Source: Bdellovibrio sp. (lineage in GTDB: Bacteria > Myxococcota > SpSt-1050). From it: a stretch of 64,000 nt of DNA. Shown in pieces: positions 19,528 through 39,377 of the stretch (position 1 is the stretch's first letter; the number at the start of each line of letters is the position of its first letter). Below the pieces are notes generated by a model. That model made no database searches, had not been told where the DNA came from, and worked only from the letters and a program-made list of their open reading frames with translations. A program made the translations under genes and the position numbers. The DNA is taken from contig DYEF01000046.1 of NCBI GenBank assembly GCA_020725805.1, positions 36,573-100,572 on the forward strand, written 5' to 3'.

Positions 19528-19530
19528 CGT

Positions 19531-21575: not shown

Positions 21576-21655
21576 ATAGTCAAAATTTAATATACCAATT
21601 TTATGTTAAATTTATCTTTTGTACAATACAGTATTAATTTTTTATTAAGAGATGC

Positions 21656-26756: not shown

Positions 26757-28231
26757 AATCCGAAATCTTTTATCGTCTTTTCCTTGAATTGTCTCACTGT
26801 TTCACTGACAATGTCGTTTTTGTTTTTTTGAAGCTTGTGTATAAACTCGACAAATGAATAAAAGTTCCAGTGTTTCATCGTATCGTAATATCCGTAGAGC
26901 ATATTTGCCAGATGGTCAGACGAATCCTTCCTGAAAATGTGCGGGTCGAGGGTAACGAGAAAATATGTCATGGATTTGACAAGGTCGAATTTTCTCTGGT
27001 CGGTAAACCTCAGCCAGTAGAAGTTTTCGGGAGAATTGTATTTGTCACTCATACGGGTAAATTTGCGGGGTTTCCAGTCGGAATAAAGAAGGATATCGGC
27101 AACCTTCTTTCTGGGAAGACGGATTCTCTCCTGAAAGGGGAAACCCGTAAGATAGAATCCATAGACATATATCCCGAGGTTATGGAGTGTCTGATATATC
27201 TCCGGGTATCTTTCGACATATTCGCTTCCAATGTGTTTTCCCATTTTGTCTATGTCTTCCGGATTGTCGGATTCGAGACCCACAAAGACCTTCCGCAGTC
27301 CCGCCTTTGCTGCCATTTTTATCAGTTCAGGGTATCTGATGACGTGGTCAGCCCTCAGGAAGGAACCAAACAGAATGTCATTGAAGCCGTTTTTCACGAG
27401 ATACTCGAAGATTCCGAAATCCCTTTCGGGTGATGCAAAAAAATTATCGTCTATTATTCCTATCTGTCTTATACCGAGCCTGTAAAGGTATTTTATCTCT
27501 TCTATGACTCTTTCAGATGATTTGATTCTCTGTCTGTTGCCCCAGTAGACGGGTATTGTGCAGAAGCTGCAGTTGTGTACACATCCGCGGGAAGTCTCTA
27601 TGGATGCAGTATAGCCTTTGTGGAATCTTGATAGATTATAATACCGGTAATCGGTCAGTTCGAACATCGGGAATGGCGTCTCATCCAGATTTTCAATGTT
27701 CTTTGTGCGGTCAACGAATTTGTTTTTATCCGCTGTCCTTTTAGACATCACACCGTCTATGTCGGTATCGGTTTCGTTGTTTACAAGATTTCTTATCAGC
27801 TTGGGAAAGCTCTTCTCTCCTTCTCGCAGAACTATGAAGTCGGCACCTCTTTTCAGCCAGTCTTCGGCAAAAAATGTAGCGTGATGTCCTCCGAGTATAA
27901 TGACAGATCTGGGGTTTATTCTTTTTATCAGTTCGATATTTACTTCGATATTCAGGGCAATGACATCAGCCATTGCATTTATACAGAAGATGTCGGAATT
28001 ACGGATGAGTTCCCTGTATTTTTCGTTGGTAATTTCTTCGAAGAGAAAATCCCTGATCTCTACTTCAATATCCGGTATGTCTCTTATTGATGCGGCCAGT
28101 AACGGATAGGTAACGTTGGGAATTCTTATAAAATACCGCGTAAAATCATCCGGCACCGGCCATGGTCTGTAGAGTACCTTTGGATTTAAGAACAGAATCC
28201 TTCTGATTTTTTTATTTGCAGTATTCTTCAA
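26753..28231 (-). CDS. B12-binding-domain radical SAM protein (paralog H)
   Basis: ILGGHHAT, VLREGEKSFPKL, IETSRGCVHNCSFCTI. ATGA overlap with the downstream GT2. Confidence 0.9.
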   Translation of the reverse strand: MKNTANKKIRRILFLNPKVLYRPWPVPDDFTRYFIRIPNVTYPLLAASIRDIPDIEVEIRDFLFEEITNEKYRELIRNSDIFCINAMADVIALNIEVNIELIKRINPRSVIILGGHHATFFAEDWLKRGADFIVLREGEKSFPKLIRNLVNNETDTDIDGVMSKRTADKNKFVDRTKNIENLDETPFPMFELTDYRYYNLSRFHKGYTASIETSRGCVHNCSFCTIPVYWGNRQRIKSSERVIEEIKYLYRLGIRQIGIIDDNFFASPERDFGIFEYLVKNGFNDILFGSFLRADHVIRYPELIKMAAKAGLRKVFVGLESDNPEDIDKMGKHIGSEYVERYPEIYQTLHNLGIYVYGFYLTGFPFQERIRLPRKKVADILLYSDWKPRKFTRMSDKYNSPENFYWLRFTDQRKFDLVKSMTYFLVTLDPHIFRKDSSDHLANMLYGYYDTMKHWNFYSFVEFIHKLQKNKNDIVSETVRQFKEKTIKDFGL

Positions 28232-28835
28232 TTGATTTTGCCGGTGAAATATCTTCGGCTATACAGCTCGAGATATTCGAACATTCGTTTGATCTGGCAA
28301 AACAGGCAAGGGTTCTGGAAACCCTGTCGTTCATAAGGAACATATCCATACACCCTTTGAGGCAGTTTGCCATATTTGAACCCATCTGCTTGGGTATATT
28401 ACCATTGTTGCATCTGGCGGCGTCCTTGCAGGCTATATCACAGAGATACCTGTTCGTGTTGCATCTTACAAAGTTGCAGTCCTTTGATTTTGAGATTGCG
28501 GATTTGATTGTATCGGGCATAGAGCCGCAGCGGGTTACACAGTCTTCCTTTGACCTGAAGACTCTGGATGCAGCAAAGTCTTTTACACAGTCCGTGATTC
28601 TGCCGCAGATCGAGTTACAGTCTTCGCCGACCTGAGGGGTATCGTTTTGTCCTACGAAGACCTCTTTCTTGACAAGGTCATTACCTATGGCAACGCTCAG
28701 TGCCTCCCTCTTTGGCTCCGCAGGAGATTCAACCTGTTTTACAGGAGGGGGAAGCGGTGCCGGGGCCTCTTCTTTTGTGCAGCCGGTTATTGCGAGAACT
28801 GACAGAAAAACGAAAATAAGTAAAAATCTGTACAT
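28212..28835 (-). CDS. Cys-rich secreted lipoprotein (type 1)
   Basis: Preferred start is ATG at 28835, preceded by GGAGG (the track start at 28847 lies inside the RBS). Signal peptide plus lipobox LAITGC. 19 Cys in the mature part, with spacing similar to the 38613-39377 product. Confidence 0.65.
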   Translation of the reverse strand: MYRFLLIFVFLSVLAITGCTKEEAPAPLPPPVKQVESPAEPKREALSVAIGNDLVKKEVFVGQNDTPQVGEDCNSICGRITDCVKDFAASRVFRSKEDCVTRCGSMPDTIKSAISKSKDCNFVRCNTNRYLCDIACKDAARCNNGNIPKQMGSNMANCLKGCMDMFLMNDRVSRTLACFARSNECSNISSCIAEDISPAKSIEEYCK

Positions 28836-28967
28836 TTTGACCTCCATCTTAAGCAGAACGCATTAATAATTACATTACATATAGTAAAAAAGCAAATCAT
28901 TTTTAACAGACTGTAAAAAGCCGTATTCGGGAAACAAGTCGGTCCGGCAATTATTCGTTCCGGTTTC

Positions 28968-28996
28968 TTGACACATATATTGACAATTGATATGAT
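28968..28996 (+). promoter_or_regulatory. Sigma70-like promoter (TTGACA-17 nt-TATGAT) in front of the plus-strand radical SAM operon
   Basis: TTGACA at 28968-28973 and TATGAT at 28991-28996. The ATG of paralog I at 29006 is only 9 nt after the -10. A second TTGACA lies at 28980-28985. Confidence 0.45.
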
Positions 28997-29005
28997 TCGA
29001 AGGAT

Positions 29006-30499
29006 ATGGCACTAAAGGTCCTTTTTATTTATCCTGATTATGAATCGATGGGGGTGGAGTTTGTTATGCAGAAGGTCCTCGATGAGGGACATTCGGTTGC
29101 CCTGCTGCTCTATAATTCGAAAGACGATTATACTTCGCAAAACAGGAAGGCAGATACAGGCAGGATTGCAAGAAAAGCCGCCGGAATGGAGCCGGATGTG
29201 ATTGCATTCTCCTGCGTAACGAATATATACAGAGAGCAGCTTGCCATTGCAGATGAGATAAAGAAGGTCAGACCTTCGGTAGTCAATGTCTTCGGTGGTG
29301 TCCACCCTACTATTGTTCCCGAACGTGTGATAGCAGAAAAGCCGGTAGATGCAATAGTCGTCGGGGAAGGTGAGACTCCTTTTGCTGAATACCTCCAGAA
29401 TGTTGAGTCGGGGAGGAGGTCGGAGATAGACGGGGTGGTTGCAAAATACGGTCAGGAGATAACCGGTAATCCGAAGAGATTTCAGCTGACCGACCTGTCG
29501 GTGAGGTCCGCACCTTTTAAGGAGGCTTTTTATCAGCTGAATCCGTTTCAGAAGGCGATTTACAGGACTGTGGCATCGAGGGGTTGTCCATATAACTGTT
29601 CCTATTGTGCAAACAGTGCCCTGAGGAAGCTCTACGGCGGCAGACACTTCAGGTACCGTCCTGTCGAAAATGTTATAGATGAGATAACTCTGGCACGAAA
29701 GAAGTATGACTTGGAATATGTATATTTCGGAGATGATTCCTTTGGTTATGACAAAAGATGGCTCTCGGAGTTTTCAGATGCTTACGAAAGAAATATCGGT
29801 CTGCCGTACAGCTCTATAGCCAATCCTTTGGACCTCGATGCAGATAAAATTGATATGCTTAAAAAATCCGGATGTGTGCATATTCAGCTGGGAATACAGT
29901 CACTCAATCAGCCGGTATGCAGAAAGATTCTCAACAGGCACATCGATACCGGGCATCTGGCAAAGGTTATAAGGATGCTCAAAGATGCCCGTATTTTCAT
30001 TCAGGCTGACCACATTATCGGAATACCGGAAGAGGACCTCTCTTCGCTTGATGAGGCAATAAGTTTCTATCTGGAGAACAGGCCGGATGTCATATCTGTC
30101 TTCTGGCTTACATATTTTCCGTCTGTAGCAATATTGGATTATGCCAGAGAGAACGGTTTGTTGTCGGATAAGGAGATCGAGGATATACTTAGCGGAGAAG
30201 GGGCCGGCAGTATCAAGATGGGTGGTTCGGTCAAGGATTACGATATATACGGAAGACATTTTCTCCTGATGAATTATCTCACACTTCTGCCCGGGTCTGT
30301 ATTCAGGCGGCTTTACAGGAGCCGTATACCGGATTTTCTTACAAAATCCTATGTCTTAGCAACCGGTCTTCCCCGCTTTGTCAAGGCATTTGCGGACAGA
30401 AGGAACTTTCTGGATAAGGAGCACTTAAAAAGGCTGATATACAACACATTTCACAAATCCGTAAGGGCGACAGGTTATTATGAAAAGAGAAGCGATTAA
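29006..30499 (+). CDS. B12-binding-domain radical SAM protein (paralog I)
   Basis: VFGGVHPT, VVGEGETPFAEY, VASRGCPYNCSYCAN. The N-terminus (FIYPDYESMGVEF) resembles paralog N. Confidence 0.9.
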   Translation: MALKVLFIYPDYESMGVEFVMQKVLDEGHSVALLLYNSKDDYTSQNRKADTGRIARKAAGMEPDVIAFSCVTNIYREQLAIADEIKKVRPSVVNVFGGVHPTIVPERVIAEKPVDAIVVGEGETPFAEYLQNVESGRRSEIDGVVAKYGQEITGNPKRFQLTDLSVRSAPFKEAFYQLNPFQKAIYRTVASRGCPYNCSYCANSALRKLYGGRHFRYRPVENVIDEITLARKKYDLEYVYFGDDSFGYDKRWLSEFSDAYERNIGLPYSSIANPLDLDADKIDMLKKSGCVHIQLGIQSLNQPVCRKILNRHIDTGHLAKVIRMLKDARIFIQADHIIGIPEEDLSSLDEAISFYLENRPDVISVFWLTYFPSVAILDYARENGLLSDKEIEDILSGEGAGSIKMGGSVKDYDIYGRHFLLMNYLTLLPGSVFRRLYRSRIPDFLTKSYVLATGLPRFVKAFADRRNFLDKEHLKRLIYNTFHKSVRATGYYEKRSD

Positions 30500-31523
30500 G
30501 GCAGCCGGACTGCTGAACAGGATTCTTTTCAGAAAATTCTTTAAGCTGAATTATTTCGTAACCTACAGGTGCAACAGCCGGTGCAGAATCTGTAACATCT
30601 GGAAGGGTTGTAATAAGACAGGGGAGAAGGAACTCGGTATTCAGGAGATAAGAAGTCTTTTTCAGTCTTTAAGGGGCAGAATATTCTGGATTAATCTTAC
30701 AGGAGGGGAGCCGTTTTTGAGGGATGATATCTCCGAAATTGTGACCGAGGCAATCAGGATTGTAAATCCGCTCATTCTGAATATCCCGACAAACGGATTA
30801 TTGCCCGGGAAAGTCCGGGATTTTGTTGACGGACTTAAAAGGAACGGCAAGTGGACGGGCGGGACGAAAATTATTATGTCCGTAAGCGTTGATGAACTTG
30901 GTGAGAAAGATGATGAACTGAGGGGCGTTAGAGGCGCTTTCGAAAAAGCTCTCGAGACACATAGAATATTATCGTCATCCGGTCTTGTTCTGGTCTATTT
31001 TCAGGTAAATATATCCGGATACAACATATCTGATATAGAACGGATACTGGATAGCATCCCGGAATATGGCAGGTATGTGATTACATTTGCACACAGGGCT
31101 GATCTTTACAGGAATGATGAGAGCAGGATGACAGCGGATTTTCACAGGGATGAGATAATCAGATTTATCGATAATTTTCTGAAAACGCTGAAGACGAGAG
31201 ATTTGCACTCGGCAGTAACAAAACTGTATTTTAAGGGTATGAGGGATTTTCTGCTGAACGGTAAGGCTCCTGTCAGATGTGCCGCCCTCAGGTCAACAAT
31301 GACTATTGACCCGTATGGAAATCTCCTTCCCTGTCCGTATAAAACCGGGGCGGCTGGTAATATCAGGAATTATGATATGGATCCTTTCAGACTTGTTTTG
31401 ACAGAAGAGAAGATATCTGATATCAGGTCCCAGAACGAGAATTGCAATATGTGCTGGCAGAACTGTGAGGCTATTCCGTCATTAATGAACGAACCTTTTT
31501 ATACTCTTAAATGTGTCTTATGA
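30480..31523 (+). CDS. Radical SAM protein with C-terminal SPASM-type auxiliary Fe-S domain
   Basis: YFVTYRCNSRCRICNIW (CxxxCxxC). C-terminal Cys set CAALRSTMTIDPYGNLLPCPY ... CNMCWQNCE is typical of SPASM/twitch domains. Overlaps the upstream gene by 20 nt. Confidence 0.8.
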   Translation: MKREAIKAAGLLNRILFRKFFKLNYFVTYRCNSRCRICNIWKGCNKTGEKELGIQEIRSLFQSLRGRIFWINLTGGEPFLRDDISEIVTEAIRIVNPLILNIPTNGLLPGKVRDFVDGLKRNGKWTGGTKIIMSVSVDELGEKDDELRGVRGAFEKALETHRILSSSGLVLVYFQVNISGYNISDIERILDSIPEYGRYVITFAHRADLYRNDESRMTADFHRDEIIRFIDNFLKTLKTRDLHSAVTKLYFKGMRDFLLNGKAPVRCAALRSTMTIDPYGNLLPCPYKTGAAGNIRNYDMDPFRLVLTEEKISDIRSQNENCNMCWQNCEAIPSLMNEPFYTLKCVL

Positions 31524-32989
31524 AAAAGATATTACTGATCAAGGCTTCATATACGGGACGGATGATAAAATCTATTACACAGCCTCTCGGGATTATGTAC
31601 ATCTCTTCGTTCATTAAGAAGATGGGTGGAGATTATGAAATCAGACTCTTTGACAACAGATTTTATTCTGACAACAGAAAGGTTGAAAATATCATCAGAG
31701 AGTATGCTGCGGATATTGTGGGTATCAGCTCGATTACACAGGAAGCTCAGAATATGCATGATATAGCGGATATTGTGAAAAGATACAACAGGAATGCCGT
31801 CGTCATTGCAGGCGGACCGCACCCTACCCAGTTTTTTGAAGACGTGCTGAATGACGTAAATATTGATTTTGTTGTCCGCGGTGAAGGTGAGGAGGTCTTT
31901 TTTGAACTTGCGGAGAAGATTAAGAAAGGCGAGGATATCGGCTTGTTGAAAGGCGTAGCATACAGGCGGGGAGAGGAGATAATCGACGGAGGTAAAGCCA
32001 TTTTGAGGATGGATGTAAATGAACTGCCGCTACCCGACTATGAGGCCGTCGATATGGAGGATTATTTCAGACACTTCTCTATGTCCACGATAGGTAAGAG
32101 AAGGTATGCCGCGATAAGTACAAGCAGAGGCTGTCCGTACGAATGTATATATTGTCATAATCTCTTCGGGAGAAGATTCAGGTATATGAGTCCCGGGCGG
32201 GTGATTGCGGAGATAGACTATCTGGTCAGAAAATACAGAATAACGGATATCGAGTTCGTGGAGGATATCTTCAACCTCAACAGAGAACGTGCTGAGAAGA
32301 TTCTGGATATGCTGATTAAGAGAGATTATAAACTCAATCTTGCTTTCCCGAATGGTCTTCGTTCGGATATGCTGGACAGGGAGCTTCTCGAAAAATTCAG
32401 AAAGGCAGGGACGATATTTATCAGTTTCGCAATAGAGACGGGTTCGTCCGAACAGCAGAAGAGAATCAAGAAGAGACTCGACCTCGAAAAGGCCAGAGAG
32501 GCAATCGATATGGCATCTGATATGGGAATTTTGTGTAACGGCTTTTTTATGCTCGGCTTTCCGGGTGAGACGAGGGAGGAGATCAAGAAGACTATCGATT
32601 TTGCACTGAACAGCAGACTTCACACGGCATATTTTTTTATTGTAAATCCCTTTAAGGGGACCGAATTGTATGATATGAACAGGGATATGATTGACGGTAT
32701 GTCTGTCAGCAACAGGTACGATGAATATTCCTATTTTCTGGGAAGATTTAATCTGAGCAGGCTCTCTACTCCGGAACTGCTGAAAATACAGAGGGATGCT
32801 TATCTGAAATTTTATCTGAGACCCGGCAGGTCATTCAGGATATTCCGTATGTATGTGAATCTGCCGGACGGTATCAGGTTTCTGACATACTATACACTTA
32901 AGACGCTTTACCTGATAGGAGACAGGGCTATAAAGGGCATTTTTCATTATGAAGGTTCTTCTGATAAAACCGATGATGCATCCCGATAA
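31520..32989 (+). CDS. B12-binding-domain radical SAM protein (paralog J)
   Basis: Preferred start is ATG at 31520 (MKKILLIKA), in an ATGA overlap with the SPASM gene stop; the track start is 31511. IAGGPHPT, VRGEGEEVFFEL, STSRGCPYECIYCHNLFGRRFRY, AFPNGLRSD. Confidence 0.9.
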   Translation: MKKILLIKASYTGRMIKSITQPLGIMYISSFIKKMGGDYEIRLFDNRFYSDNRKVENIIREYAADIVGISSITQEAQNMHDIADIVKRYNRNAVVIAGGPHPTQFFEDVLNDVNIDFVVRGEGEEVFFELAEKIKKGEDIGLLKGVAYRRGEEIIDGGKAILRMDVNELPLPDYEAVDMEDYFRHFSMSTIGKRRYAAISTSRGCPYECIYCHNLFGRRFRYMSPGRVIAEIDYLVRKYRITDIEFVEDIFNLNRERAEKILDMLIKRDYKLNLAFPNGLRSDMLDRELLEKFRKAGTIFISFAIETGSSEQQKRIKKRLDLEKAREAIDMASDMGILCNGFFMLGFPGETREEIKKTIDFALNSRLHTAYFFIVNPFKGTELYDMNRDMIDGMSVSNRYDEYSYFLGRFNLSRLSTPELLKIQRDAYLKFYLRPGRSFRIFRMYVNLPDGIRFLTYYTLKTLYLIGDRAIKGIFHYEGSSDKTDDASR

Positions 32990-34310
32990 TGTCCAGCCTC
33001 CCTTGGGCCTCGGATATCTGGCATCTGTTATAAAATCAGGGGGTTTCGACGTAAGGATTCTGGACCTCGAGCTTCTGAAAAAGGGTGCAGACAGCACAGA
33101 AAGGATTTTAATTCAGAACAGACCCGATGTGGTGGCAATCCAGTGTTATACCTATGGTATCGGTATCGTCAGGGAGTATCTGAAAAAAGTAAAGGAATTC
33201 GATAGCGGCATTATTACAATTCTCGGAGGACCACAGGTTACAGGTTCTCCCGAAGAGACACTTGAATATATGTCTCCTTTTGCTGATTATCTGATTGCGG
33301 GAGAGGCCGAATTTGAGATGGTAAAGCTTTTGAAAGCACTCAAAGAGGGCGTGGTGCCGGAAAGCAATGTAATTAAAGCAGGGCTTATCGAGAATCTGGA
33401 TGATATACCGTTCCCCTGCTGGGAATTGATTGACCCTTCCTCTTATCCTCCGGCCCCTCACGGTGCATTTTACAGGGAGTTTCCCGTGGCTCCGGTTATA
33501 GCCTCCCGTGGCTGTCCGTATAATTGTTATTTCTGTGAGGCTACGGTGCTCTCCGGAAGCAGGGTGAGATACAGGTCGGTCGAAAACCTTACCGAAGAGA
33601 TTCTCTTTCTGAATAAGAGATTTGGTGTAAGGGAGATACACTTTGTCGACGATAATTTTACATTCAGAAGAGATTATGTCCTTAAATTCTGTGAACGTAT
33701 ATTGTCAAAAGGGCTCAGACTCTCGTTTGCCTGTCCGAACGGTGTCAGAATCGATTCAATCGACAGGGAATTGCTCTCTGTTATGAAGAGGGCCGGCTTC
33801 TATTCGCTCTCTTTGGGGATCGAGTCGGGTTCCCAGAGGGTTCTGGACCGGATTAACAAGAAGATTAATCTTGAAGATGTAAAAAAGGCCGTGAAACTGC
33901 TGAATGAAGCAGGGATATGTGCGGTAGGGTTTTTTATTATAGGATTTCCGTTCGAGAGCAGGGAGGATATTGAAAGGACAATAGAGTTTGCAAAGAGTCT
34001 TGACCTGACACTTGCAAATTTTATGCTCTATCACCCTCTGCCCAAAACCGTGCTCTATGAAGAGATGAAGGAGAGTAATCTTCTCGGGGATATCGACCTG
34101 AACGCTGTCTCGTTTTCCCACTCTGCTTATTCGCACGGCAGTATTTCGAAGAGGGATCTGAAATATCTGCAGATAAAGGCTTTTCTGAGTTTTTACGGAA
34201 GACCGGAGAAATTCTTTTCGACGGTGAAAAACATCAGGTCCCCCGAACACTTTATGTATGTATTTAAGAGAATCAGAAGATGGCTTATAGGTTCCTGGTT
34301 TAACCGATGA
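32949..34310 (+). CDS. B12-binding-domain radical SAM protein (paralog K)
   Basis: MKVLLIKPM, ILGGPQVT, IAGEAEFEMVKL, IASRGCPYNCYFCEA, ACPNGVRID. 41-nt overlap with paralog J. Confidence 0.9.
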   Translation: MKVLLIKPMMHPDNVQPPLGLGYLASVIKSGGFDVRILDLELLKKGADSTERILIQNRPDVVAIQCYTYGIGIVREYLKKVKEFDSGIITILGGPQVTGSPEETLEYMSPFADYLIAGEAEFEMVKLLKALKEGVVPESNVIKAGLIENLDDIPFPCWELIDPSSYPPAPHGAFYREFPVAPVIASRGCPYNCYFCEATVLSGSRVRYRSVENLTEEILFLNKRFGVREIHFVDDNFTFRRDYVLKFCERILSKGLRLSFACPNGVRIDSIDRELLSVMKRAGFYSLSLGIESGSQRVLDRINKKINLEDVKKAVKLLNEAGICAVGFFIIGFPFESREDIERTIEFAKSLDLTLANFMLYHPLPKTVLYEEMKESNLLGDIDLNAVSFSHSAYSHGSISKRDLKYLQIKAFLSFYGRPEKFFSTVKNIRSPEHFMYVFKRIRRWLIGSWFNR

Positions 34311-35578
34311 GAGTACTGCTATTAAATCCCCCCGGCCAGAAGAGATATCTCAGAGACTGCTACTGTTCTACTATATCAAAGGGTGCATATCTCTGGCAAC
34401 CGGCAGATCTGTTGTCTGCCTCCGCTATTCTGGGAGAAAAGAATGAACTATCCGTCCTTGACTGTATAGCCCGGGGATTCTCCCCGAAAAAGGCATCAGG
34501 AATGATAAAAGAGATTTCTCCCGAACTTATATATATGCTGATATCATCGCTTTCGCTGAATGAAGATATCGAATTTGCCCGTCTTTTGAAGAGGGAGATA
34601 AGAGGTGTCAGGATTATATGTTCCGGTGAACCGGTTTTATCGGATGAGTTTGCTGAAAAAAATGATGTCTTCGATATTCTTGTGAGGAATTATACAAGTC
34701 CTGATCTGGGAAATCCCGAAGAACTCCTGAAAATGGGTGGCGGCAGGGTGATTGCGGCAGGAGACAAAAGAAGGAGCTCATACTTCAGTATCGGTCAGCC
34801 GTATCATGAGTTGTTTGATAGTGACAGATACTGGATTCCGTTCGCGAGATTACCTTTTGCCACTCTTATAACGGATTTCGGCTGTCCCTTTGGCTGCCGG
34901 TTCTGCAACAGCAATTTTCATTATGCAAAAAGGGATGATGCAGAGGTAATGGAGGATATTCGCAGAATCGCCGTTCTGGGTTTTAAGCATATCTTCATCA
35001 AAGATATGACATTTCTGATAGACAGGGAACGTTCTCTGAGATTTGCCGAAGAGATTGCCAGACACAAAATGACATTCAACTGTTACAGCAGGATTGACCT
35101 TGTGGATAATGATATTCTTGACCAGCTGAAGAGGCTCGGACTCAGACTTATTCAGTTCGGGGTTGAGGATTACGACGAATCAGTACTCGAATCAGAGGGA
35201 AAAAAATTATCGTACGAAAAGACCATATCTGTATTCAGGCATCTGAGGGAGACGGGTGTTTTTACAGGCGCGCATTTCATAGTCGGGCTCCCTTCCCGCA
35301 ATGGTCAGTATGAATATGACAGACTTTTCAGACTTATAAGGGACTTGAGACCGAGTTATATCTCGGTTAATATATTTACTCCGAGAACAGGTTCGTATTA
35401 TTCGGAAAATACAGACGTAAAAAGACCAGCTGACTCTGAAAGACACAAATCAGCCGGTCTGCTTTTCCGGTCGGTCCTCTCAACGTCCTATCTGATAACA
35501 GACCCTATAAAGGATATCAGCAGGGATACCTTTTTATGGTATTTAAAAGCTGTATTCGGTATGATAAAAGGTAACTGA
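34307..35578 (+). CDS. Radical SAM protein with degenerate B12-like N-terminal domain (paralog L)
   Basis: MRVLLLNPPG, LITDFGCPFGCRFCNS. It is the shortest paralog (423 aa) and lacks the GEGE landmark. ATGA overlap with paralog K. Confidence 0.8.
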   Translation: MRVLLLNPPGQKRYLRDCYCSTISKGAYLWQPADLLSASAILGEKNELSVLDCIARGFSPKKASGMIKEISPELIYMLISSLSLNEDIEFARLLKREIRGVRIICSGEPVLSDEFAEKNDVFDILVRNYTSPDLGNPEELLKMGGGRVIAAGDKRRSSYFSIGQPYHELFDSDRYWIPFARLPFATLITDFGCPFGCRFCNSNFHYAKRDDAEVMEDIRRIAVLGFKHIFIKDMTFLIDRERSLRFAEEIARHKMTFNCYSRIDLVDNDILDQLKRLGLRLIQFGVEDYDESVLESEGKKLSYEKTISVFRHLRETGVFTGAHFIVGLPSRNGQYEYDRLFRLIRDLRPSYISVNIFTPRTGSYYSENTDVKRPADSERHKSAGLLFRSVLSTSYLITDPIKDISRDTFLWYLKAVFGMIKGN

Positions 35579-37029
35579 TGGCTGATATACTCTTTATAAT
35601 GCCCCGTATTGGATATATGGATTCGAGACGGAGTCATCCGGCGGTTCCTCTCAGTATCCTGAGCGCTGCAAATCTTGTCTCAAGGGAATTCGGTGTAAAG
35701 ATACTCGATATGCGAATCAGCAACTCTTTTGAGGAAGAACTGAAGACGGAACTGCTGAAAAAGCCGCTTCTGGTAGCCTCAACCTGCTGGACAGGTCCTA
35801 TGATAAGAGATGTAGTCAGGGTAGCGAGGTTTGTAAAGAGATATGGGGATATCCCTGTGGTTCTGGGCGGTGTCCATCCTACCCTGCTCCCTGAGCAGAC
35901 CGTACTCTCCCCTTTTGTTGATTTTGTGATTACTGGCGAAGGAGAAGAATCCCTTCTGAAACTTGCAAGGGTATTGAAAAACGGGGGGAGCATCGGCGAC
36001 GTTCCGAATCTCTGTTACAAAAAGGACGGGAAAGCGGTATCTACATTCAGGTCGGATTTCCTGAAACTGGATGAGCTCCCGGAACTGCCTTACCATCTTA
36101 TAGAAGTTACGAAATATCTTCCGCTCTATCAGGGGAGAAGGAGTATATCAATCGAGAGCTCGAGGGGATGTCCGTTCAGATGCAGATACTGCTATCAGGG
36201 ACCTTTCAACAGACAGCAGATAAGGTTTGTCTCGGCAGATAAGGTTGTAAAGTCGGTAATAAATCTGAGGGACAGATACGGTGTGGAGGATTTTTATTTT
36301 ATCGATGACAATTTCTATATCGATATGGAACGTGGCAAAGAGATTGCGCTGGGGCTTCAGGGCAGGGGAGTAACATACCAGATTCAGGGTGTGGATATTC
36401 TCTCTCTGTCGAAGATGAGCGACGAGTATTTCTCTCTTCTGGAGAGAAGCGGTCTCAGACGTCTGACAATAGGGATTGAGACCGGTTCCCCGAGACTCAG
36501 GGAGTATCTCGGTAAAAAGGGTGATGTTGAGACTATCATAGAAGTTGTGAAGAGACTCTCTAAACACAATATCATCATATATTGCAGTTTCTTCGGAGGA
36601 TATCCGGAGGAGACAGTCGAGGATGTAAGGATGAGTATTGACCTTATGCTCAGGCTCATCGGCTTAAATCCCAATTTCAGAACCTCTCCTTACTATATAT
36701 ATATTCCTTTTCCCGGGACCCGGATGTATGAAGAGATAGTAAAAGCCGGCAGATTCAGGGAGCCCAAAACGTTCGAAGAGTGGGGTGATTTTTCGTGGGA
36801 AGACAATCCATATATCAGGACTCTCGGGAGAGAGAAGGCAGAGCTTTACAGGCGGCTATATCTGCTCACTCTTTTTGCAGATGACAAGTACAGGGAGTAT
36901 GAGTATTCATCCCTCAGAAAGGCAGCGGCATCGCTTTATCACAGAATTGCATATCTGAGGTTAAAGCACTTCTGGCTCAGATATATGCCGGAAATGTTAT
37001 TGTATAAAAATTTGTTTGGTGCTGAGTAA
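35578..37029 (+). CDS. B12-binding-domain radical SAM protein (paralog M)
   Basis: VLGGVHPT, ITGEGEESLLKL, ESSRGCPFRCRYCYQ. TGATG 1-nt overlap with paralog L. Confidence 0.9.
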   Translation: MADILFIMPRIGYMDSRRSHPAVPLSILSAANLVSREFGVKILDMRISNSFEEELKTELLKKPLLVASTCWTGPMIRDVVRVARFVKRYGDIPVVLGGVHPTLLPEQTVLSPFVDFVITGEGEESLLKLARVLKNGGSIGDVPNLCYKKDGKAVSTFRSDFLKLDELPELPYHLIEVTKYLPLYQGRRSISIESSRGCPFRCRYCYQGPFNRQQIRFVSADKVVKSVINLRDRYGVEDFYFIDDNFYIDMERGKEIALGLQGRGVTYQIQGVDILSLSKMSDEYFSLLERSGLRRLTIGIETGSPRLREYLGKKGDVETIIEVVKRLSKHNIIIYCSFFGGYPEETVEDVRMSIDLMLRLIGLNPNFRTSPYYIYIPFPGTRMYEEIVKAGRFREPKTFEEWGDFSWEDNPYIRTLGREKAELYRRLYLLTLFADDKYREYEYSSLRKAAASLYHRIAYLRLKHFWLRYMPEMLLYKNLFGAE

Positions 37030-37030
37030 T

Positions 37031-38533
37031 ATGGAGACAGAAAGAGTGTATGATGTGATCGTTGTAGGCGGAGGTATCGGAGGACTTTCTGCGGGCGCAA
37101 TACTGTCGAAGAAGGGATATTCGGTGCTCCTGCTTGAAAAGAATAGTCTGCCGGGAGGGAACTGTAATTATTTCGAATATTCCGGTATCAGGTTCGAGTT
37201 TGCTGTCCACCAGATAACAACCATTGGTTCAGATACGGGCATGGGCTGGTTTTTGAGAGAACTGGGAATCAGGACTGAGTTTATCAGAATAAACGACCTG
37301 CTCGACATATATTATCCGGAGAGAAGTTTCAGGATTTCGGGTAGTTTCGATAGTTACCTCGATGCCCTGAACCGGTTCAGAAGCTGTAAGCAGAACAGGG
37401 AGTATATCGCATTCCTGAGGGATGTAAGTTGTCTGGTAGAACACTATGACTGGCTTTTCAGTGGTAAAATATTAAGTCCGCCGGAGATGAATCTTCCGTT
37501 TTGTGTGAGAGGTCCGTTCTCTCTCTTCAGGTTTCTTAAGAGTGCAGATATGACCTCGGAGCAGTTTATGAAGAGATTTTTTCCGGCGATAGCGGATAAC
37601 GAAATGGCTTATTTTCTTGCCCCGTATATAGGTCTGCCGCCCGACAGAAGTGCGGCTATTATGAATATCTGTGCAAACTCCTCTTATCTCTCAAAGGGTT
37701 CGTATTATCCTGCCGGAGGAAGCAGGGCTCTTTCGGAGGCGTTTTGTGATGTTATAAAAAATAATGGCGGGAGTGTTTTATTGAACAGCGAGGTAACTGA
37801 GGTCAGAAAGAGAGAAGGTAAATTCAGGGTATCAACCCGGGGTGGCGGTATTTACAGCTCAAGGGCTCTCGTTCTCAACGCCCCCGTGAAGTATGCTCTT
37901 GATAGAATTATCGCCGGAGGTGAAGAGCCTGACGAATACAAAAGGAAGATAGAAAAACTCGCTTGCTCTCTTTCTCCTCTGAGAATCTTCTGCATTTACG
38001 AGGGAGATACATCTGTCTTTGATAAGATGGGTTATGAGAGTTTTATGTATGAGTCTTCTTCTCTCAGGCAGTATTTTGCAGATATTATGGATGGCAAATA
38101 TTCCGGATTTTCGGTTCTTCTGCCGTTTAAGATAGACCCTGAAAACCGGCAGGGCAACAGGGTTCCTGTTATTATAACAACCCTTACCAAATACCTTACG
38201 GATGAGGAGTTCGAGGTGCGGAAGGAATCTGTTCTTGACAGGATTTTCGGAATACTCGATAAATATGCAAAGGGCATTTCGTCCGGGATTCAGATTGCAT
38301 CGATACTGACCCCGGAGGGCCTGAAAAAAAGGACAAATGTGGACAGCGGGGCTATGTATGGATGGGAATGTTCACCCGGACAGGCTCTTTTCAACCGCTT
38401 GAAGCAGGAGACGAATATCGAAGGAATGTTCTTGAGCGGCCACTGGACGAGACCTGTAAACGGAATATCCGGAGTGATCAGGTCCGGAACCGCCTGTGCA
38501 AAACTGGTGAGCAGGTATCTGAAAAGGCATTAA
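37031..38533 (+). CDS. FAD/NAD(P)-dependent oxidoreductase, phytoene desaturase (CrtI)-like family
   Basis: ATG at 37031, 1 nt after the stop of paralog M (the track start at 37016 is a TTG). Dinucleotide-binding motif YDVIVVGGGIGGLSAGAILSKKGYSVLLLEKNSLPGG. About 500 aa, with a C-terminal GHWTRPVNGISGV typical of CrtI/amine-oxidase-fold enzymes. Confidence 0.75.
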   Translation: METERVYDVIVVGGGIGGLSAGAILSKKGYSVLLLEKNSLPGGNCNYFEYSGIRFEFAVHQITTIGSDTGMGWFLRELGIRTEFIRINDLLDIYYPERSFRISGSFDSYLDALNRFRSCKQNREYIAFLRDVSCLVEHYDWLFSGKILSPPEMNLPFCVRGPFSLFRFLKSADMTSEQFMKRFFPAIADNEMAYFLAPYIGLPPDRSAAIMNICANSSYLSKGSYYPAGGSRALSEAFCDVIKNNGGSVLLNSEVTEVRKREGKFRVSTRGGGIYSSRALVLNAPVKYALDRIIAGGEEPDEYKRKIEKLACSLSPLRIFCIYEGDTSVFDKMGYESFMYESSSLRQYFADIMDGKYSGFSVLLPFKIDPENRQGNRVPVIITTLTKYLTDEEFEVRKESVLDRIFGILDKYAKGISSGIQIASILTPEGLKKRTNVDSGAMYGWECSPGQALFNRLKQETNIEGMFLSGHWTRPVNGISGVIRSGTACAKLVSRYLKRH

Positions 38534-38565: not shown

Positions 38566-38593
38566 TTGACAATTGCTTATTATAAATTATAAT
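38566..38593 (+). promoter_or_regulatory. Consensus sigma70-like promoter (TTGACA-16 nt-TATAAT) upstream of the Cys-rich lipoprotein/GT module
   Basis: TTGACA at 38566-38571 and TATAAT at 38588-38593. AAGGAGG at 38601-38607 and ATG at 38613 follow. Confidence 0.5.
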
Positions 38594-38612: not shown

Positions 38613-39377
38613 ATGAAGAGAAATAGTACAAATATTATTCTGGTTATTATTGCAATTATATCGGTATTAGGCCTGCTTAAGTGCAGTTCTTCCTCGGATG
38701 GCGACGGAGACGGTACAACAGACACACAGGTCGACCCTGTTTCAAAGGTCTGTTCAAATATTCCGAAATGTTTCGGAGGTTCATATCCGGCATTTTTCGG
38801 CAAATCCAAAAAGGAGTGTATGACGAAGGTCGGTGAGAATCTGAGCGATGACGAGGTTGACACGTTGATCGAGGCCGGAACAAAATGCGACGAGATTACT
38901 CCGGTTATCAAGGCGTACGAAGGAAAGAAGACCTGTGAGATACTCAAGGGATGTATGGGAGATGCCGAATTTGCGAATCTGTTCGGGACAATAGACGGTT
39001 GCGTATCATACGGAAACAATAAAGGAATCAAGGAAGAAGATTTTAAGTGTGTGGACCAGAACAGTTCGAACTGTGAAGTTATTGCCAACTACTGCCTCGC
39101 CAAGTATAATCCTGACGCAGGTGTTGAAGATGCCGGCGAGGATGCAGGTGAGGACGCCGGAGAGGAGAAGGCCTGTGTTACAGATACAAAAAGCTATTAC
39201 TGTGTTGATGTGTGTGATAAATTCTATACCTGTACCGGACAGTATTGCCCGCAGGGAGGCTGTACCAAGGAGAGTTGTATACACGGCTGCAATACAGAGT
39301 CGGTCTTTACGGTCGAACTGATGTGTTGCATAATGGAAAAGTCCTGCAGCGAGATCAACACCTGTCTTCCCAAGTAA
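38613..39377 (+). CDS. Cys-rich secreted lipoprotein (type 2)
   Basis: ATG at 38613 after AAGGAGG (the track start at 38595 is a TTG). Signal peptide plus lipobox LGLLKC. Acidic DAGEDAGEDAGE linker. The C-terminal Cys pattern parallels the 28212-28835 product. Confidence 0.65.
   Translation: MKRNSTNIILVIIAIISVLGLLKCSSSSDGDGDGTTDTQVDPVSKVCSNIPKCFGGSYPAFFGKSKKECMTKVGENLSDDEVDTLIEAGTKCDEITPVIKAYEGKKTCEILKGCMGDAEFANLFGTIDGCVSYGNNKGIKEEDFKCVDQNSSNCEVIANYCLAKYNPDAGVEDAGEDAGEDAGEEKACVTDTKSYYCVDVCDKFYTCTGQYCPQGGCTKESCIHGCNTESVFTVELMCCIMEKSCSEINTCLPK

What the first reader, a model, noticed from the sequence alone, without database searches (positions are those of the whole stretch)
29006..38533. Seven-gene translationally coupled operon: five B12-rSAMs, one SPASM rSAM and one degenerate rSAM ending in a CrtI-like flavoenzyme
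**Seen directly**
- Gene junctions are overlaps or near-zero gaps.
- I/SPASM overlap by 20 nt (30480-30499).
- SPASM/J share an ATGA at 31520-31523.
- J/K overlap by 41 nt (32949-32989).
- K/L share an ATGA at 34307-34310.
- L/M share a TGATG at 35576-35580.
- The M stop (37027-37029) is followed by the flavoenzyme ATG at 37031.

**Inference**
- Such tight coupling implies stoichiometric co-production and probably a multi-enzyme assembly acting on one substrate.
- In established cases, CrtI/amine-oxidase-fold enzymes desaturate, saturate or isomerise polyene or isoprenoid chains. This fits a hydrophobic isoprenoid substrate better than a peptide or sugar.
Basis: partly seen in the sequence, partly recalled or inferred. 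Interest (0 to 1): 0.7.

Follow-up and report, generated by a model that had tools for sequence, protein, structure and literature searches.

The report
Orphan radical-SAM lipid-tailoring operon
A real, conserved seven-gene operon of six radical-SAM enzymes and a carotenoid-desaturase-like flavoenzyme lies inside a rare ~39 kb cluster carrying 13 B12-type radical-SAM genes and prenyl- and sugar-transfer genes, and it probably tailors an unknown isoprenoid or lipid-linked envelope molecule.

Summary
The seven ORFs are real genes under purifying selection (dN/dS 0.07-0.18). SPASM-J-K-L-M-flavoenzyme is kept in that order, with tight junctions, in five further loci from four distinct lineages (42-85% identity).

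The gene count in the title is off. There are four clear B12-rSAMs (I, J, K, M). L has an intact CxxxCxxC motif but a degenerate B12 domain. The other two genes are one SPASM rSAM and one flavoenzyme.

The flavoenzyme belongs to the CrtI family by sequence and by predicted structure (best fold match 4REP, TM 0.81). It is not an amine oxidase or a protoporphyrinogen oxidase. It reaches no curated subfamily cut-off.

The operon is one unit of a supercluster (8818-47814). This holds a polyprenyl synthase, a UbiA prenyltransferase closest to DGGGP and chlorophyll synthases, 13 divergent B12-type rSAMs, two polyprenyl-phosphate-sugar-synthase plus GT-C modules, and two Cys-rich putative lipoproteins.

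An isoprenoid lipid substrate is plausible but not shown. A physical multi-enzyme complex is not supported by anything here. No characterised homologue exists and the product is unknown. I rate it a new variant of the radical-SAM lipid-tailoring clusters.

The parts
28968..28996 (+). Sigma-70-like promoter (TTGACA-17-TATGAT with TG) 10 nt upstream of gene I
   Evidence: Scores 11 of 12. The sequence is conserved in L002. This is a consensus match only.
29006..30499 (+). Gene I, a B12-binding radical SAM enzyme of 497 aa
   Evidence: PF02310 70 bits and PF04055 80 bits. CPYNCSYC motif at residue 194. 79% identical to the L002 orthologue and absent from L003 and L012. dN/dS 0.12.
30480..31523 (+). 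Radical SAM enzyme with a C-terminal SPASM domain, 347 aa
   Evidence: PF04055 and PF13186. CNSRCRIC motif at residue 31, so there is no room for an N-terminal peptide-recognition domain. Cx12Gx4C followed by CxxCxxxC near the C-terminus. The best NCBIfam hit is the PTO1314 family at 70 bits against a cut-off of 306.
31520..32989 (+). Gene J, a B12-binding radical SAM enzyme (489 aa, or 492 aa from the ATG at 31511)
   Evidence: Orthologues at 58-82% identity in five loci. A 36% orthologue in the Elusimicrobiales locus L004.
32949..34310 (+). Gene K, a B12-binding radical SAM enzyme of 453 aa
   Evidence: The N-terminus is conserved from residue 1 in all orthologues, so the 38-41 nt overlap with J is real.
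34307..35578 (+). Gene L, a radical SAM enzyme with a decayed B12-type N-terminal domain, 423 aa
   Evidence: PF04055 only. CPFGCRFC motif intact. The N-terminal domain aligns colinearly with the B12 domains of the paralogues (hhalign probability 99.95), but GGxHxT has become SGEPVL and there is a conserved YLRDCYCSTISKG motif. The best solved relative is AprD4, 6FD2. The best NCBIfam hit is HpnJ at 87 bits against a cut-off of 578. dN/dS 0.14.
35578..37029 (+). Gene M, a B12-binding radical SAM enzyme of 483 aa and the most conserved gene of the operon
   Evidence: dN/dS 0.07. Clear orthologues lie next to flavoenzyme homologues in Elusimicrobiales L004 (282 bits, next paralogue 110) and Omnitrophota L010 (240 bits against 149). 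The best solved relative is TokK.
37031..38533 (+). CrtI-family FAD flavoenzyme of 500 aa
   Evidence: PF01593 70 bits and a GGGIGG dinucleotide-binding motif. crtI_fam 103 bits, below its cut-off of 238. AlphaFold2 model with pLDDT 91.6. Foldseek top hit 4REP with TM 0.81. Only two other full-length 50%-identity clusters above 40% identity among 1.84 billion representatives.
38566..38593 (+). Perfect sigma-70-like promoter (TTGACA-16-TATAAT) in the 79-nt spacer after the flavoenzyme gene
   Evidence: Scores 12 of 12. Identical hexamers in L002. An AT-rich spacer sits at this position in all the orthologous loci checked: L001, L002, L003 and L008.
38613..39377 (+). Cys-rich secreted putative lipoprotein, and the only gene here with a strong Shine-Dalgarno sequence
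   Evidence: Signal peptide followed by Cys and a Ser-rich linker, conserved in L002, L003, L008 and L012. SD pairing energy -12.7 kcal/mol.
39393..41879 (+). Polyprenyl-phosphate glycosyltransferase (GT2) fused to a polytopic membrane domain, 828 aa
   Evidence: PF00535 105 bits. The best solved relatives are ArnC (E 3e-30) and Pyrococcus Dol-P-Man synthase. Seven TM-like segments.
41876..43213 (+). Polytopic protein resembling a GT-C glycosyltransferase (weak PMT_2 match)
   Evidence: PF13231 23.5 bits, below the gathering score of 26.1. Seven TM-like segments. The assignment is tentative.
43226..43504 (+). Small membrane protein with a LAB_N domain
   Evidence: PF07578 112 bits.
43501..44943 (+). 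Gene N, a B12-binding radical SAM enzyme embedded in the glycosylation unit
44934..47814 (+). Three genes: a 200-aa protein of unknown function, a GDSL hydrolase or acyltransferase, and a polytopic protein with eight TM-like segments
   Evidence: All three are conserved in L002, L003 and L012. Profile searches against solved structures found no relative.
23112..28847 (-). Divergent unit: Cys-rich lipoprotein (28212-28847), B12-rSAM H (26753-28231), GT2 (26049-26756), GT-C-like protein (24565-26076), and a TM plus beta-propeller protein (23112-24575)
   Evidence: Junctions overlap by 4-28 nt. Partly conserved in L002, L003 and L012.
18148..23065 (-). B12-rSAMs F, E and D, plus a B12-domain-only ORF at 21060-21575
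   Evidence: This stretch has low GC (0.36-0.38) and is the least conserved part against L005.
9901..15338 (-). B12-rSAMs C, B and A, followed by a UbiA prenyltransferase (9901-10827) that overlaps A by 11 nt
   Evidence: Both Asp-rich UbiA motifs are present. The closest solved relatives are DGGGP synthase 6M31 (73 bits) and chlorophyll a synthase (62 bits). The same layout occurs in L005 at 78-87% identity.
8818..9873 (+). trans-Polyprenyl diphosphate synthase, convergent with UbiA
   Evidence: PF00348 184 bits. DDIED and DDILD motifs. The best NCBIfam hits are short-chain IdsA (155 bits) and GGPP synthase (131 bits), both below their cut-offs. It occupies the same position in L005.

Best explanation
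Shown:
- 29006-38533 is a conserved, co-oriented, tightly packed unit of six radical-SAM genes followed by a CrtI-family flavoenzyme gene.
- It is bracketed by promoter-like sites and all seven genes are under purifying selection.
- It lies inside a ~39 kb supercluster (8818-47814).

Inferred:
- The unit is the cytoplasmic tailoring line for a hydrophobic, lipid-linked substrate. The most likely substrate is an O-prenylated C20-type isoprenoid lipid, made by the cluster's short-chain polyprenyl synthase and its DGGGP-synthase/chlorophyll-synthase-like UbiA.
- The four B12-rSAMs I, J, K and M would each functionalise one unactivated carbon. This could be methylcobalamin-dependent C-methylation, as in HpnP, HpnR and Gmm, or C-C ring closure, as in GrsA and GrsB.
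- L has lost the B12 signature and is nearest to AprD4 and HpnJ. The SPASM enzyme carries auxiliary Fe-S clusters. These two would carry out non-methylating radical steps such as dehydration, rearrangement or cross-linking.
- The flavoenzyme would saturate, isomerise, hydrate or desaturate a C=C bond of the chain, as CrtISO, RetSat, Has and CrtD do. M and the flavoenzyme form the evolutionarily stable pair.
- The two neighbouring units, each with a polyprenyl-phosphate-sugar synthase and a GT-C-like transferase, would then glycosylate the product or its acceptor on the periplasmic side.

Translational coupling is likely. A physical enzyme complex is untested.
For: - Junctions and genes.
- Core order conserved in five further loci from four distinct lineages (L003 and L012 are near-identical).
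- dN/dS 0.07-0.18.
- Flanking promoter-like sites conserved in L002, weak internal SDs and a strong SD on the next gene.
- Flavoenzyme in the CrtI family by HMM, by sequence against solved structures, and by fold.
- UbiA overlaps rSAM gene A by 11 nt, keeps both Asp-rich motifs, and is closest to DGGGP synthase and chlorophyll synthase. These are O-prenylating enzymes that use C20 donors..
- The polyprenyl synthase is closest to short-chain and GGPP synthases.
- The UbiA-A-B-C layout and the synthase recur in L005.
- Flavoenzyme homologues in Elusimicrobiales and Omnitrophota again lie beside M, H or J orthologues, other B12-rSAMs, a GT2 and a GT-C.
- The SPASM enzyme has no room for an N-terminal peptide-recognition domain.
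- Precedents for rSAM and CrtI-family enzymes acting on isoprenoid lipids (Tes, Grs, Gmm, Cgm, Ted, Has, HpnH, HpnJ, HpnP, HpnR): bioRxiv 10.1101/2025.10.20.683597 and PMC13459092.
Against: - No enzyme in the cluster reaches any curated family cut-off, so every chemical assignment is by analogy.
- UbiA and the polyprenyl synthase are seen beside rSAM genes only in the window and in L005.
- UbiA orthologues at 50-63% identity are common in Myxococcota, Planctomycetes and others without rSAM neighbours. The UbiA may therefore be a housekeeping gene that happens to be adjacent.
- The window has no GGGP synthase, phytoene or squalene synthase, terpene cyclase or geranylgeranyl reductase.
- The abundance of polyprenyl-phosphate-sugar and GT-C genes, and the AprD4 and HpnJ affinities of L and J, fit a sugar substrate equally well.
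- There are no expression or chemical data.
Confidence: 0.45

Rival explanations
1. Sugar or glycan tailoring. The rSAMs and the flavoenzyme modify a sugar, either as a nucleotide sugar or already on polyprenyl phosphate. This parallels ArnD acting on Und-P-Ara4FN and HpnJ, Cds and AprD4 acting on sugar rings. The GT-C enzymes then transfer the unusual sugar to the Cys-rich lipoproteins or to another envelope acceptor, as in Ppm1/Pmt-type lipoprotein O-glycosylation.
For: - The GT2 at 39393 is closest to ArnC and Dol-P-Man synthase.
- There are two GT2 plus GT-C-like pairs, each with its own embedded B12-rSAM (H and N) and each headed by a secreted Cys-rich putative lipoprotein with a Ser/Thr- or Pro-rich linker.
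- A LAB_N protein is present.
- The closest solved relative of L and J is the aminoglycoside diol-dehydratase AprD4, and the best model for L is HpnJ.
- The Elusimicrobiales cluster L004 adds a sugar nucleotidyltransferase and an aminotransferase.
- The association of flavoenzyme with GT-C and GT2 recurs across phyla.
Against: - No CrtI-family enzyme is known, to my knowledge, to act on sugars. The fold match is to carotenoid desaturases.
- A UbiA overlapping rSAM gene A and an adjacent polyprenyl synthase are not needed for sugar tailoring.
- The PMT_2 matches in the window are below Pfam's gathering score.
- Thirteen different B12-type rSAMs is a large number for one or two sugars.
Confidence: 0.25
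2. Polyene or fatty-acyl lipid chemistry of the kind proposed for ladderanes. The CrtI-like enzyme desaturates an acyl or alkyl chain into a polyene, and B12-rSAMs cyclise or cross-link it.
For: - The proposed ladderane clusters pair a phytoene-dehydrogenase-like enzyme with a B12-rSAM (PMC13459092).
- The M plus flavoenzyme pair is conserved across phyla.
- The TIGR04072 'lipid biosynthesis B12/rSAM' model hits K at 142 bits.
Against: - That hit is far below the model's cut-off of 360.
- The Pfam scans found no ACP, FabF, FabZ or other fatty-acid synthesis gene in the window.
- No anammox taxon appears among the named flavoenzyme relatives.
Confidence: 0.1
3. Peptide or protein maturation. 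The SPASM enzyme and the B12-rSAMs modify a ribosomal product by thioether cross-links and C-methylations, with the adjacent Cys-rich proteins as substrates.
For: - Cys-rich proteins flank the operon in every lineage.
- SPASM enzymes often act on Cys-rich peptides.
- J and M hit the RiPP models ApyD and rSAM_ocin_1 at 113-156 bits.
Against: - Those scores are far below the cut-offs of 750 and 282.
- The Cys-rich proteins are 211-254 aa with Sec or lipoprotein signal peptides. They are not leader-peptide precursors.
- There is no RRE/PqqD domain, and the rSAM motif of the SPASM enzyme starts at residue 31.
- There is no leader protease or dedicated exporter.
- No conserved small ORF lies in the two spacers flanking the operon.
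- It leaves the CrtI-like enzyme, UbiA and the polyprenyl synthase unexplained.
Confidence: 0.07
4. Tetrapyrrole modification. BchE/BchQ/BchR-like rSAMs plus a chlorophyll-synthase-like UbiA tailor and esterify a porphyrinoid cofactor.
For: - BchE is the top NCBIfam model for I, J, K, A, B, D and F at 119-243 bits.
- ChlG is the top model for UbiA at 119 bits.
- Chlorophyll a synthase is the second-closest solved UbiA relative.
Against: - All these scores are far below the cut-offs (481 for BchE, 313 for ChlG).
- BchE is the generic best hit for B12-rSAMs (my own knowledge).
- The window has no chelatase, reductase or other tetrapyrrole gene.
Confidence: 0.04

Closest known systems
Archaeal isoprenoid ether-lipid pathway and its radical-SAM tailoring enzymes (GGPP synthase, DGGGP synthase, Has, Tes, GrsA/B, Gmm/Cgm, Ted)
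   Same: The same kinds of parts occur together:
- a short-chain polyprenyl synthase
- a UbiA whose closest solved relative is DGGGP synthase
- a phytoene-desaturase-family flavoenzyme, as Has is
- an rSAM with auxiliary-cluster cysteines that weakly matches Tes and GDGT-MAS
- multiple B12-rSAMs, the class that cyclises, methylates and desaturates GDGT chains
   Different: - The cluster is bacterial. It carries a LAB_N protein, lipobox proteins and a LuxR-type two-component system.
- The window has no GGGP synthase, G1P dehydrogenase, CarS or geranylgeranyl reductase.
- Tes scores 39 bits against a cut-off of 450.
- Grs, Gmm and Ted similarity was not tested directly.
- In archaea these genes are scattered, not packed into one ~39 kb cluster with 13 paralogues.
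Hopanoid (hpn) side-chain and ring tailoring cluster: HpnE, HpnH, HpnI, HpnJ, HpnP/HpnR
   Same: It has the same cast: a CrtI/amine-oxidase-fold flavoenzyme (HpnE), an rSAM with C-terminal cysteines (HpnH), a B12-like rSAM acting on a sugar head group (HpnJ, the best model for L), B12-rSAM C-methylases (HpnP, HpnR), and a GT2 (HpnI, HpnB). All act on one isoprenoid lipid (PMC13459092).
   Different: - All scores are far below the cut-offs: HpnH 43 against 225, HpnJ 87-202 against 578, HpnE 53 against 283, HpnR 94 against 650, HpnB 18 against 379.
- The window has no squalene synthase genes (hpnC, hpnD) and no squalene-hopene cyclase.
CrtI / CrtD / CrtISO / RetSat flavoenzymes
   Same: An FAD Rossmann domain plus a substrate domain. 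The top fold match is the gamma-carotenoid desaturase 4REP (TM 0.81), followed by 3KA7, CrtI 4DGK and 3NRN. The best NCBIfam models are crtI_fam, CrtD and CrtISO.
   Different: - Only 16-21% identical to solved members.
- crtI_fam scores 103 bits against a cut-off of 238, CrtISO 80 against 587, and the CrtD models 60-82 against cut-offs of 500-580.
- No phytoene synthase or other carotenoid gene is nearby.
- The orthologue group is tiny.
Arn-type periplasmic glycosylation (ArnC plus ArnT) and Ppm1/Pmt lipoprotein O-mannosylation
   Same: The neighbouring units pair an ArnC/DPMS-like polyprenyl-phosphate glycosyltransferase with polytopic GT-C-like proteins. Secreted putative lipoproteins with Ser/Thr-rich linkers sit alongside.
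   Different: - ArnC scores 95 bits against a cut-off of 529.
- The PMT_2 hits are below Pfam's gathering score.
- These genes lie outside the seven-gene operon.
- No known Arn or Pmt system contains B12-rSAMs.

Membership tests
Class B (B12-binding) radical SAM enzymes | N-terminal B12-binding Rossmann domain (PF02310) followed by a radical-SAM core with CxxxCxxC | tested here: met
   I, J, K and M each match PF02310 at 47-71 bits and PF04055 at 80-104 bits, and each has the motif. For L the rSAM core is met but PF02310 is not detected. Its N-terminal domain is homologous (hhalign probability 99.95), with GGxHxT replaced by SGEPVL. Cobalamin binding itself cannot be tested here.
SPASM-domain radical SAM enzymes | Radical-SAM core plus a C-terminal Cys-rich SPASM domain (PF13186) for auxiliary Fe-S clusters | tested here: met
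   PF04055 57.5 bits and PF13186 23.5 bits, against a gathering score of 21.5. Cx12Gx4C and CxxCxxxC are present.
CrtI / phytoene desaturase family (TIGR02734) | Whole-protein score at or above the curated cut-off of 238.1 bits | tested here: not met
   103.1 bits. Superfamily membership is met: PF01593 scores 70 bits against 19.8, and the fold match to 4REP has TM 0.81.
Carotenoid isomerase CrtISO (TIGR02730) and CrtD (NF045637, TIGR02733, NF042421) | Equivalog score cut-off (586.9 for CrtISO; 580, 549.7 and 500 for the three CrtD models) | tested here: not met
   CrtISO 79.8 bits. CrtD models 81.8, 80.3 and 59.8 bits.
   The PPO model scores 35.5 bits against 103 for crtI_fam. MAO matches only the N-terminal FAD motif. 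Foldseek gives 4REP 6e-33, against about 1e-21 for MAO and NicA2 and 1.4e-19 for PPO.
Hopanoid tailoring enzymes HpnH, HpnJ, HpnE, HpnR | NCBIfam equivalog cut-offs (225, 577.6, 283, 650), plus a squalene-hopene cyclase in the neighbourhood | tested here: not met
   SPASM enzyme against HpnH 43.4 bits. L against HpnJ 86.6 and C against HpnJ 201.5. Flavoenzyme against HpnE 53.1. J against HpnR 93.7. The Pfam scans found no cyclase or squalene synthase.
Tetraether synthase Tes (NF045702) | Equivalog cut-off of 450 bits | tested here: not met
   The SPASM enzyme scores 39 bits. 7TOL matches only the first ~100 residues, at E 4e-5.
GDGT ring synthases and methylases (GrsA/B, Gmm, Cgm, Ted) | Orthology to the characterised archaeal B12-rSAMs | not tested
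   No reference sequences or models for these were available in the tools used. None appeared among the top NCBIfam hits.
Ladderane-associated lipid B12-rSAM (TIGR04072) | Equivalog cut-off of 360 bits, plus neighbouring ACP and Fab genes | tested here: not met
   The best score is K at 142.5 bits. B, C and D score 125-141 bits. The window has no ACP or Fab genes.
RiPP B12-rSAM C-methyltransferases (TIGR03975, ApyD NF050148) | Cut-offs of 281.85 and 750 bits, plus a precursor peptide and a recognition element | tested here: not met
   J scores 112.9 and 156.2 bits. No precursor ORF, RRE, protease or exporter was found.
BchE anaerobic cyclase (TIGR02026) and chlorophyll synthase ChlG (NF005742) | Cut-offs of 481.35 and 313 bits | tested here: not met
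   The best BchE score is B at 243 bits, and within the operon J at 189 bits. UbiA scores 119 bits against ChlG.
DGGGP synthase (PRK12882, PRK12883) | Cut-offs of 296 and 353 bits, plus an accompanying GGGP synthase | tested here: not met
   100 and 81.5 bits. It is nevertheless the closest solved relative (6M31, 73 bits). The window has no GGGP synthase.
Translationally coupled operon | Same strand, overlapping or abutting stop and start codons, no internal promoter or terminator, one transcript | tested here: inconclusive
   The geometry is met and conserved. Internal SDs are weak. Internal promoter-like and terminator-like matches are at chance level: 45 found against 35.7 +/- 7.2 expected, and 24 against 17.1 +/- 4.5. 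The transcript itself cannot be tested here.

The most novel reading that the evidence does not exclude
An uncultured Myxococcota- or Deltaproteobacteria-like lineage makes an O-prenylated, archaeal-style isoprenoid lipid and then remodels its chains with more than ten different B12-type radical-SAM enzymes before glycosylating it. The remodelling would include poly-methylation, ring closure or cross-linking, plus a CrtI-like saturase, hydratase or isomerase. This would be an oxygen-independent bacterial counterpart of archaeal GDGT tailoring and a possible source of orphan methylated or cyclised isoprenoid biomarkers. The rSAM M and the flavoenzyme would form a conserved reaction pair shared with Elusimicrobiota and Omnitrophota.
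Probability: 0.2. Interest if true: 0.85.

Novelty: new variant of a known kind. Interest (0 to 1): 0.6.

Why it matters
Radical-SAM tailoring of lipids is known from only a few systems: hopanoids, archaeal tetraethers, jawsamycin and the proposed ladderane route (PMC13459092). In those systems one to three such enzymes act on a known scaffold.

This cluster packs 13 deeply divergent B12-type rSAMs (22-36% identical to each other). It adds a SPASM rSAM, a CrtI-like flavoenzyme, a prenyltransferase, a polyprenyl synthase and two lipid-linked glycosylation units. A variant rSAM lies just upstream. The cluster is conserved under purifying selection, yet it is very rare: three 50%-identity clusters of the flavoenzyme, counting the window's own, among 1.84 billion representatives.

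If the product is an isoprenoid glycolipid, the cluster would reveal new anaerobic C-H functionalisation chemistry. It would also bear on the bacterial/archaeal lipid divide and on the origin of unexplained sedimentary lipids. Even if the substrate proves to be a sugar, the cross-phylum link between B12-rSAMs, a CrtI-like enzyme and GT-C transferases is undescribed.

Tried and rejected
- **Rfam and tRNA scans** of the whole window found no riboswitch (cobalamin or SAM) and no RNA gene.
- **Precursor-peptide search.** Spacers are 79-160 nt, and only non-conserved ORFs of 37-65 aa occur upstream of gene I.
- **Source of the window.** Its own flavoenzyme is not on record in the contig index. Taxonomy therefore rests on relatives: a Deltaproteobacteria MAG (GCA_026416255) and Myxococcota MAGs.
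- **Collection scans with the flavoenzyme.** The genome scan returned one locus and the metagenome scan two, one of them a duplicate. The group really is rare.
- **Profile searches of the unknown proteins** u46465 and u44934 against solved structures gave nothing for the first and only spurious ubiquitin-repeat hits for the second.
- **Four literature searches** for a described cluster of this composition found none.
- **M homologues at about 39% identity** occur in an unrelated context (L013). The cross-phylum association is therefore not universal.
- **Rejected assignments:** hopanoid, carotenoid, ladderane, RiPP and bacteriochlorophyll. Every curated cut-off is missed by a wide margin and the hallmark scaffold genes are absent.
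- **Rejected description:** 'degenerate rSAM' for any gene in the operon. The only rSAM in the window without CxxxCxxC is the variant-rSAM gene at 7384-8631, which lies outside the operon.

Full report
**1. Observation**

- I (29006-30499) overlaps the SPASM gene (30480-31523) by 20 nt.
- The SPASM stop lies inside an ATGA at 31520-31523 that starts J. An upstream in-frame ATG at 31511 is also possible.
- J and K overlap by 41 nt.
- K and L share ATGA at 34307-34310.
- L and M share TGATG at 35576-35580.
- The M stop (37027-37029) is one base before the flavoenzyme ATG at 37031.

The N-terminus of K is conserved from residue 1 in all orthologues, so the long J/K overlap is real.

**2. Gene content**

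Pfam finds B12-binding plus Radical_SAM in I, J, K and M. L has Radical_SAM only. The second gene has Radical_SAM plus SPASM. The last gene has Amino_oxidase and NAD_binding_8.

All six rSAMs keep CxxxCxxC. The seven genes are therefore four clear B12-rSAMs, one rSAM with a decayed B12 domain, one SPASM rSAM and one flavoenzyme. The title's count of five plus one plus one plus a flavoenzyme does not add up to seven.

A profile-profile comparison shows that the N-terminal 150 residues of L are homologous to the B12 domains of the paralogues (probability 99.95). The GGxHxT signature has become SGEPVL, and a conserved YLRDCYCSTISKG-Y-WQP motif has appeared. The closest solved relative of L is AprD4. 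From my own knowledge, AprD4 has a B12-like domain but does not use cobalamin.

**3. The genes are real and form a conserved unit**

dN/dS between the window and L002 is 0.07-0.18 for all seven genes, L included.

The order SPASM-J-K-L-M-flavoenzyme, followed by an AT-rich spacer and a Cys-rich secreted protein, recurs in five further loci:
- L002 (72-85% amino-acid identity)
- L001, a Myxococcota MAG (54-69%)
- L003 and L012 (42-63%), which are near-identical to each other and count as one lineage
- L008 (42-60%)

Junctions in these loci overlap or lie at most 23 nt apart. Gene I is present only in the window and L002.

**4. Expression unit**

In 28.5-48.4 kb, the two best plus-strand sigma-70-like matches lie exactly in the two intergenic regions that flank the operon. 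One is at 28968-28996 (11 of 12, with TG). The other is at 38566-38593 (12 of 12). Both are conserved in L002.

Internal promoter-like and terminator-like matches are at chance level. Promoter-like sites number 45 against 35.7 +/- 7.2 expected, and terminator-like sites 24 against 17.1 +/- 4.5.

Internal genes have weak or no Shine-Dalgarno pairing (+0.9 to -5.9 kcal/mol). The first gene after the operon has AAGGAGG (-12.7). This fits co-transcription and translational coupling.

No terminator follows the flavoenzyme gene, so read-through into the next unit is possible.

Tight junctions are the rule throughout the supercluster: 15 of 25 overlap. They are therefore not a special property of these seven genes. 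They say nothing about stoichiometry or a physical complex.

**5. The flavoenzyme**

NCBIfam ranks crtI_fam (103 bits), CrtD (82) and CrtISO (80, full-length alignment) far above HpnE (53) and protoporphyrinogen oxidase (35). None reaches its cut-off.

By sequence, the best solved relatives are CrtI 4DGK and 4REP. Monoamine oxidases match only the FAD-binding N-terminus.

An AlphaFold2 model (pLDDT 91.6) matches the gamma-carotenoid desaturase 4REP at TM 0.81 and E 6e-33. Next come 3KA7, 4DGK and 3NRN at about 1e-23. Amine oxidases score about 1e-21.

The enzyme is CrtI-like, but it is a deep, uncharacterised branch.

An exhaustive search of 1.84 billion representatives found only two other full-length 50%-identity clusters above 40% identity. 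The score then drops sharply, from 441 to 261 bits.

**6. Surroundings**

The operon is one unit of a supercluster spanning 8818-47814.

Minus strand:
- B12-rSAMs C, B and A, then a UbiA prenyltransferase that overlaps A by 11 nt. A trans-polyprenyl synthase lies convergent to it.
- B12-rSAMs F, E and D, plus a B12-domain-only ORF.
- A unit made up of a Cys-rich lipoprotein, B12-rSAM H, a GT2, a GT-C-like protein and a TM plus beta-propeller protein.

Plus strand, after the operon:
- A Cys-rich lipoprotein and an 828-aa GT2. The catalytic domain of the GT2 is closest to ArnC and Dol-P-Man synthase (E 3e-30).
- A GT-C-like protein, a LAB_N protein, B12-rSAM N, a protein of unknown function, a GDSL enzyme and a polytopic protein with eight TM-like segments.

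The 13 B12-type rSAMs are only 22-36% identical to one another. None reaches a curated family cut-off.

UbiA keeps both Asp-rich motifs. It is closest to DGGGP synthase 6M31 (73 bits) and to chlorophyll a synthase (62 bits). From established knowledge, both are O-prenylating enzymes that use C20 donors. The synthase is closest to short-chain and GGPP synthases.

The UbiA-A-B-C-DUF4388 layout, with the synthase, recurs at 78-87% identity in L005, a Deltaproteobacteria MAG.

**7. Limits of the isoprenoid link**

UbiA has thousands of homologues. Orthologues at 50-63% identity in Myxococcota and other phyla have no rSAM neighbours.

The window has no GGGP synthase, phytoene or squalene synthase, terpene cyclase or geranylgeranyl reductase.

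**8. Wider pattern**

Flavoenzyme homologues at 27-30% identity again lie beside a PMT_2-type GT-C, a GT2 and several B12-rSAMs. This holds in Elusimicrobiales (L004), Omnitrophota (L010) and another metagenome contig (L011).

M has unambiguous orthologues in two of these loci. In L004 the match is 282 bits, against 110 for the next window paralogue. In L010 it is 240 against 149. J has an orthologue in L004 and H in L010.

M is also the most constrained gene of the operon. M plus the flavoenzyme therefore looks like the stable functional pair. An M homologue at 39% identity does occur in an unrelated context (L013).

**9. Interpretation**

The best-supported reading is a cytoplasmic radical tailoring line for a hydrophobic, lipid-linked substrate. 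The most likely substrate is an O-prenylated isoprenoid made by the cluster's own UbiA and synthase.
- B12-rSAMs would carry out regiospecific C-methylation or ring closure.
- L and the SPASM enzyme would carry out non-methylating radical steps.
- The flavoenzyme would handle a chain double bond.
- The neighbouring units would glycosylate on the periplasmic side.

Precedents are the archaeal Tes, Grs, Gmm, Cgm, Ted and Has enzymes (bioRxiv 10.1101/2025.10.20.683597) and the hopanoid enzymes HpnH, HpnJ, HpnP, HpnR and HpnE (PMC13459092).

The main rival is sugar tailoring on a polyprenyl-phosphate carrier, followed by transfer to the Cys-rich lipoproteins. The ArnC-like and GT-C genes fit it, as do the AprD4 and HpnJ affinities of L and J and the sugar genes in L004. 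Ladderane-like, RiPP and tetrapyrrole readings are weaker, for the reasons listed with each rival.

**10. Verdict**

The complex and the stoichiometry are over-read. The cluster is an orphan, rare variant of the radical-SAM lipid-tailoring systems, with exceptional rSAM density and an unknown product.

Noticed in passing
window 21060-21575 (-): A 171-aa ORF that holds only a B12-binding domain (PF02310, 37 bits) with no radical-SAM half. Its homologue in L005 is a full-length 516-aa B12-rSAM. It is either a remnant or a stand-alone cobalamin-binding protein.
   Followed up: partly
window 18000-22000: The stretch carrying rSAMs D and E and the B12-only ORF has GC 0.36-0.38, against 0.42-0.48 around it. 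It is also the least conserved part against L005 (D 58% identical, E with no orthologue). It looks like a variable or replaced slot in the cluster.
   Followed up: partly
window 7384-8631 (-): A 'variant radical SAM' protein (NF045502, 166 bits, above its cut-off of 125) that lacks CxxxCxxC. It lies next to a TauE/SafE exporter (6631-7374) and is divergent from the polyprenyl synthase. This is the only truly non-canonical rSAM in the window.
   Followed up: partly
window 28212-28847 (-) and 38613-39377 (+): Two unrelated secreted proteins, each with about 20 cysteines. Each has a signal peptide ending in Cys, followed by a Pro/Ala-rich or Ser/Thr/Asp-Gly-rich linker. Each heads a GT2 plus GT-C unit, and both are conserved in all the lineages whose loci cover them. 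They could be glycosylation acceptors or periplasmic lipid handlers.
   Followed up: partly
window 16597-18078 (+) and 23112-24575 (-): Two proteins without Pfam families. Each has 5-6 N-terminal transmembrane segments and a C-terminal region with weak beta-propeller or lactonase-like matches.
   Followed up: no
window 28991-29008: The -10 element of the promoter-like site ends 9 nt before the ATG of gene I, and L002 has the same spacing. Gene I may therefore be translated from a leaderless or very short-leader mRNA.
   Followed up: no
L004 (Elusimicrobiales GCA_031082205), L010 (Omnitrophota GCA_043826565), L011: Distant flavoenzyme homologues recur beside PMT_2(+TPR) GT-C proteins, a GT2 and up to five B12-rSAMs. 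L004 has two tandem flavoenzyme paralogues plus aminotransferase, M20 peptidase and nucleotidyltransferase genes.
   Followed up: partly
window 54278-59148 (+): Two large proteins (817 and 771 aa) with Lcl_C, InlB B-repeat-like and Dickkopf_N-like Cys-rich domains. They lie downstream of a 7TMR-DISM histidine kinase and LuxR-type response regulators.
   Followed up: no
window 43226-43504 (+): The LAB_N protein also gives a weak MtN3/SWEET-like match (E 0.007). This hints at a SemiSWEET-like small transporter that might flip the polyprenyl-phosphate sugar.
   Followed up: no
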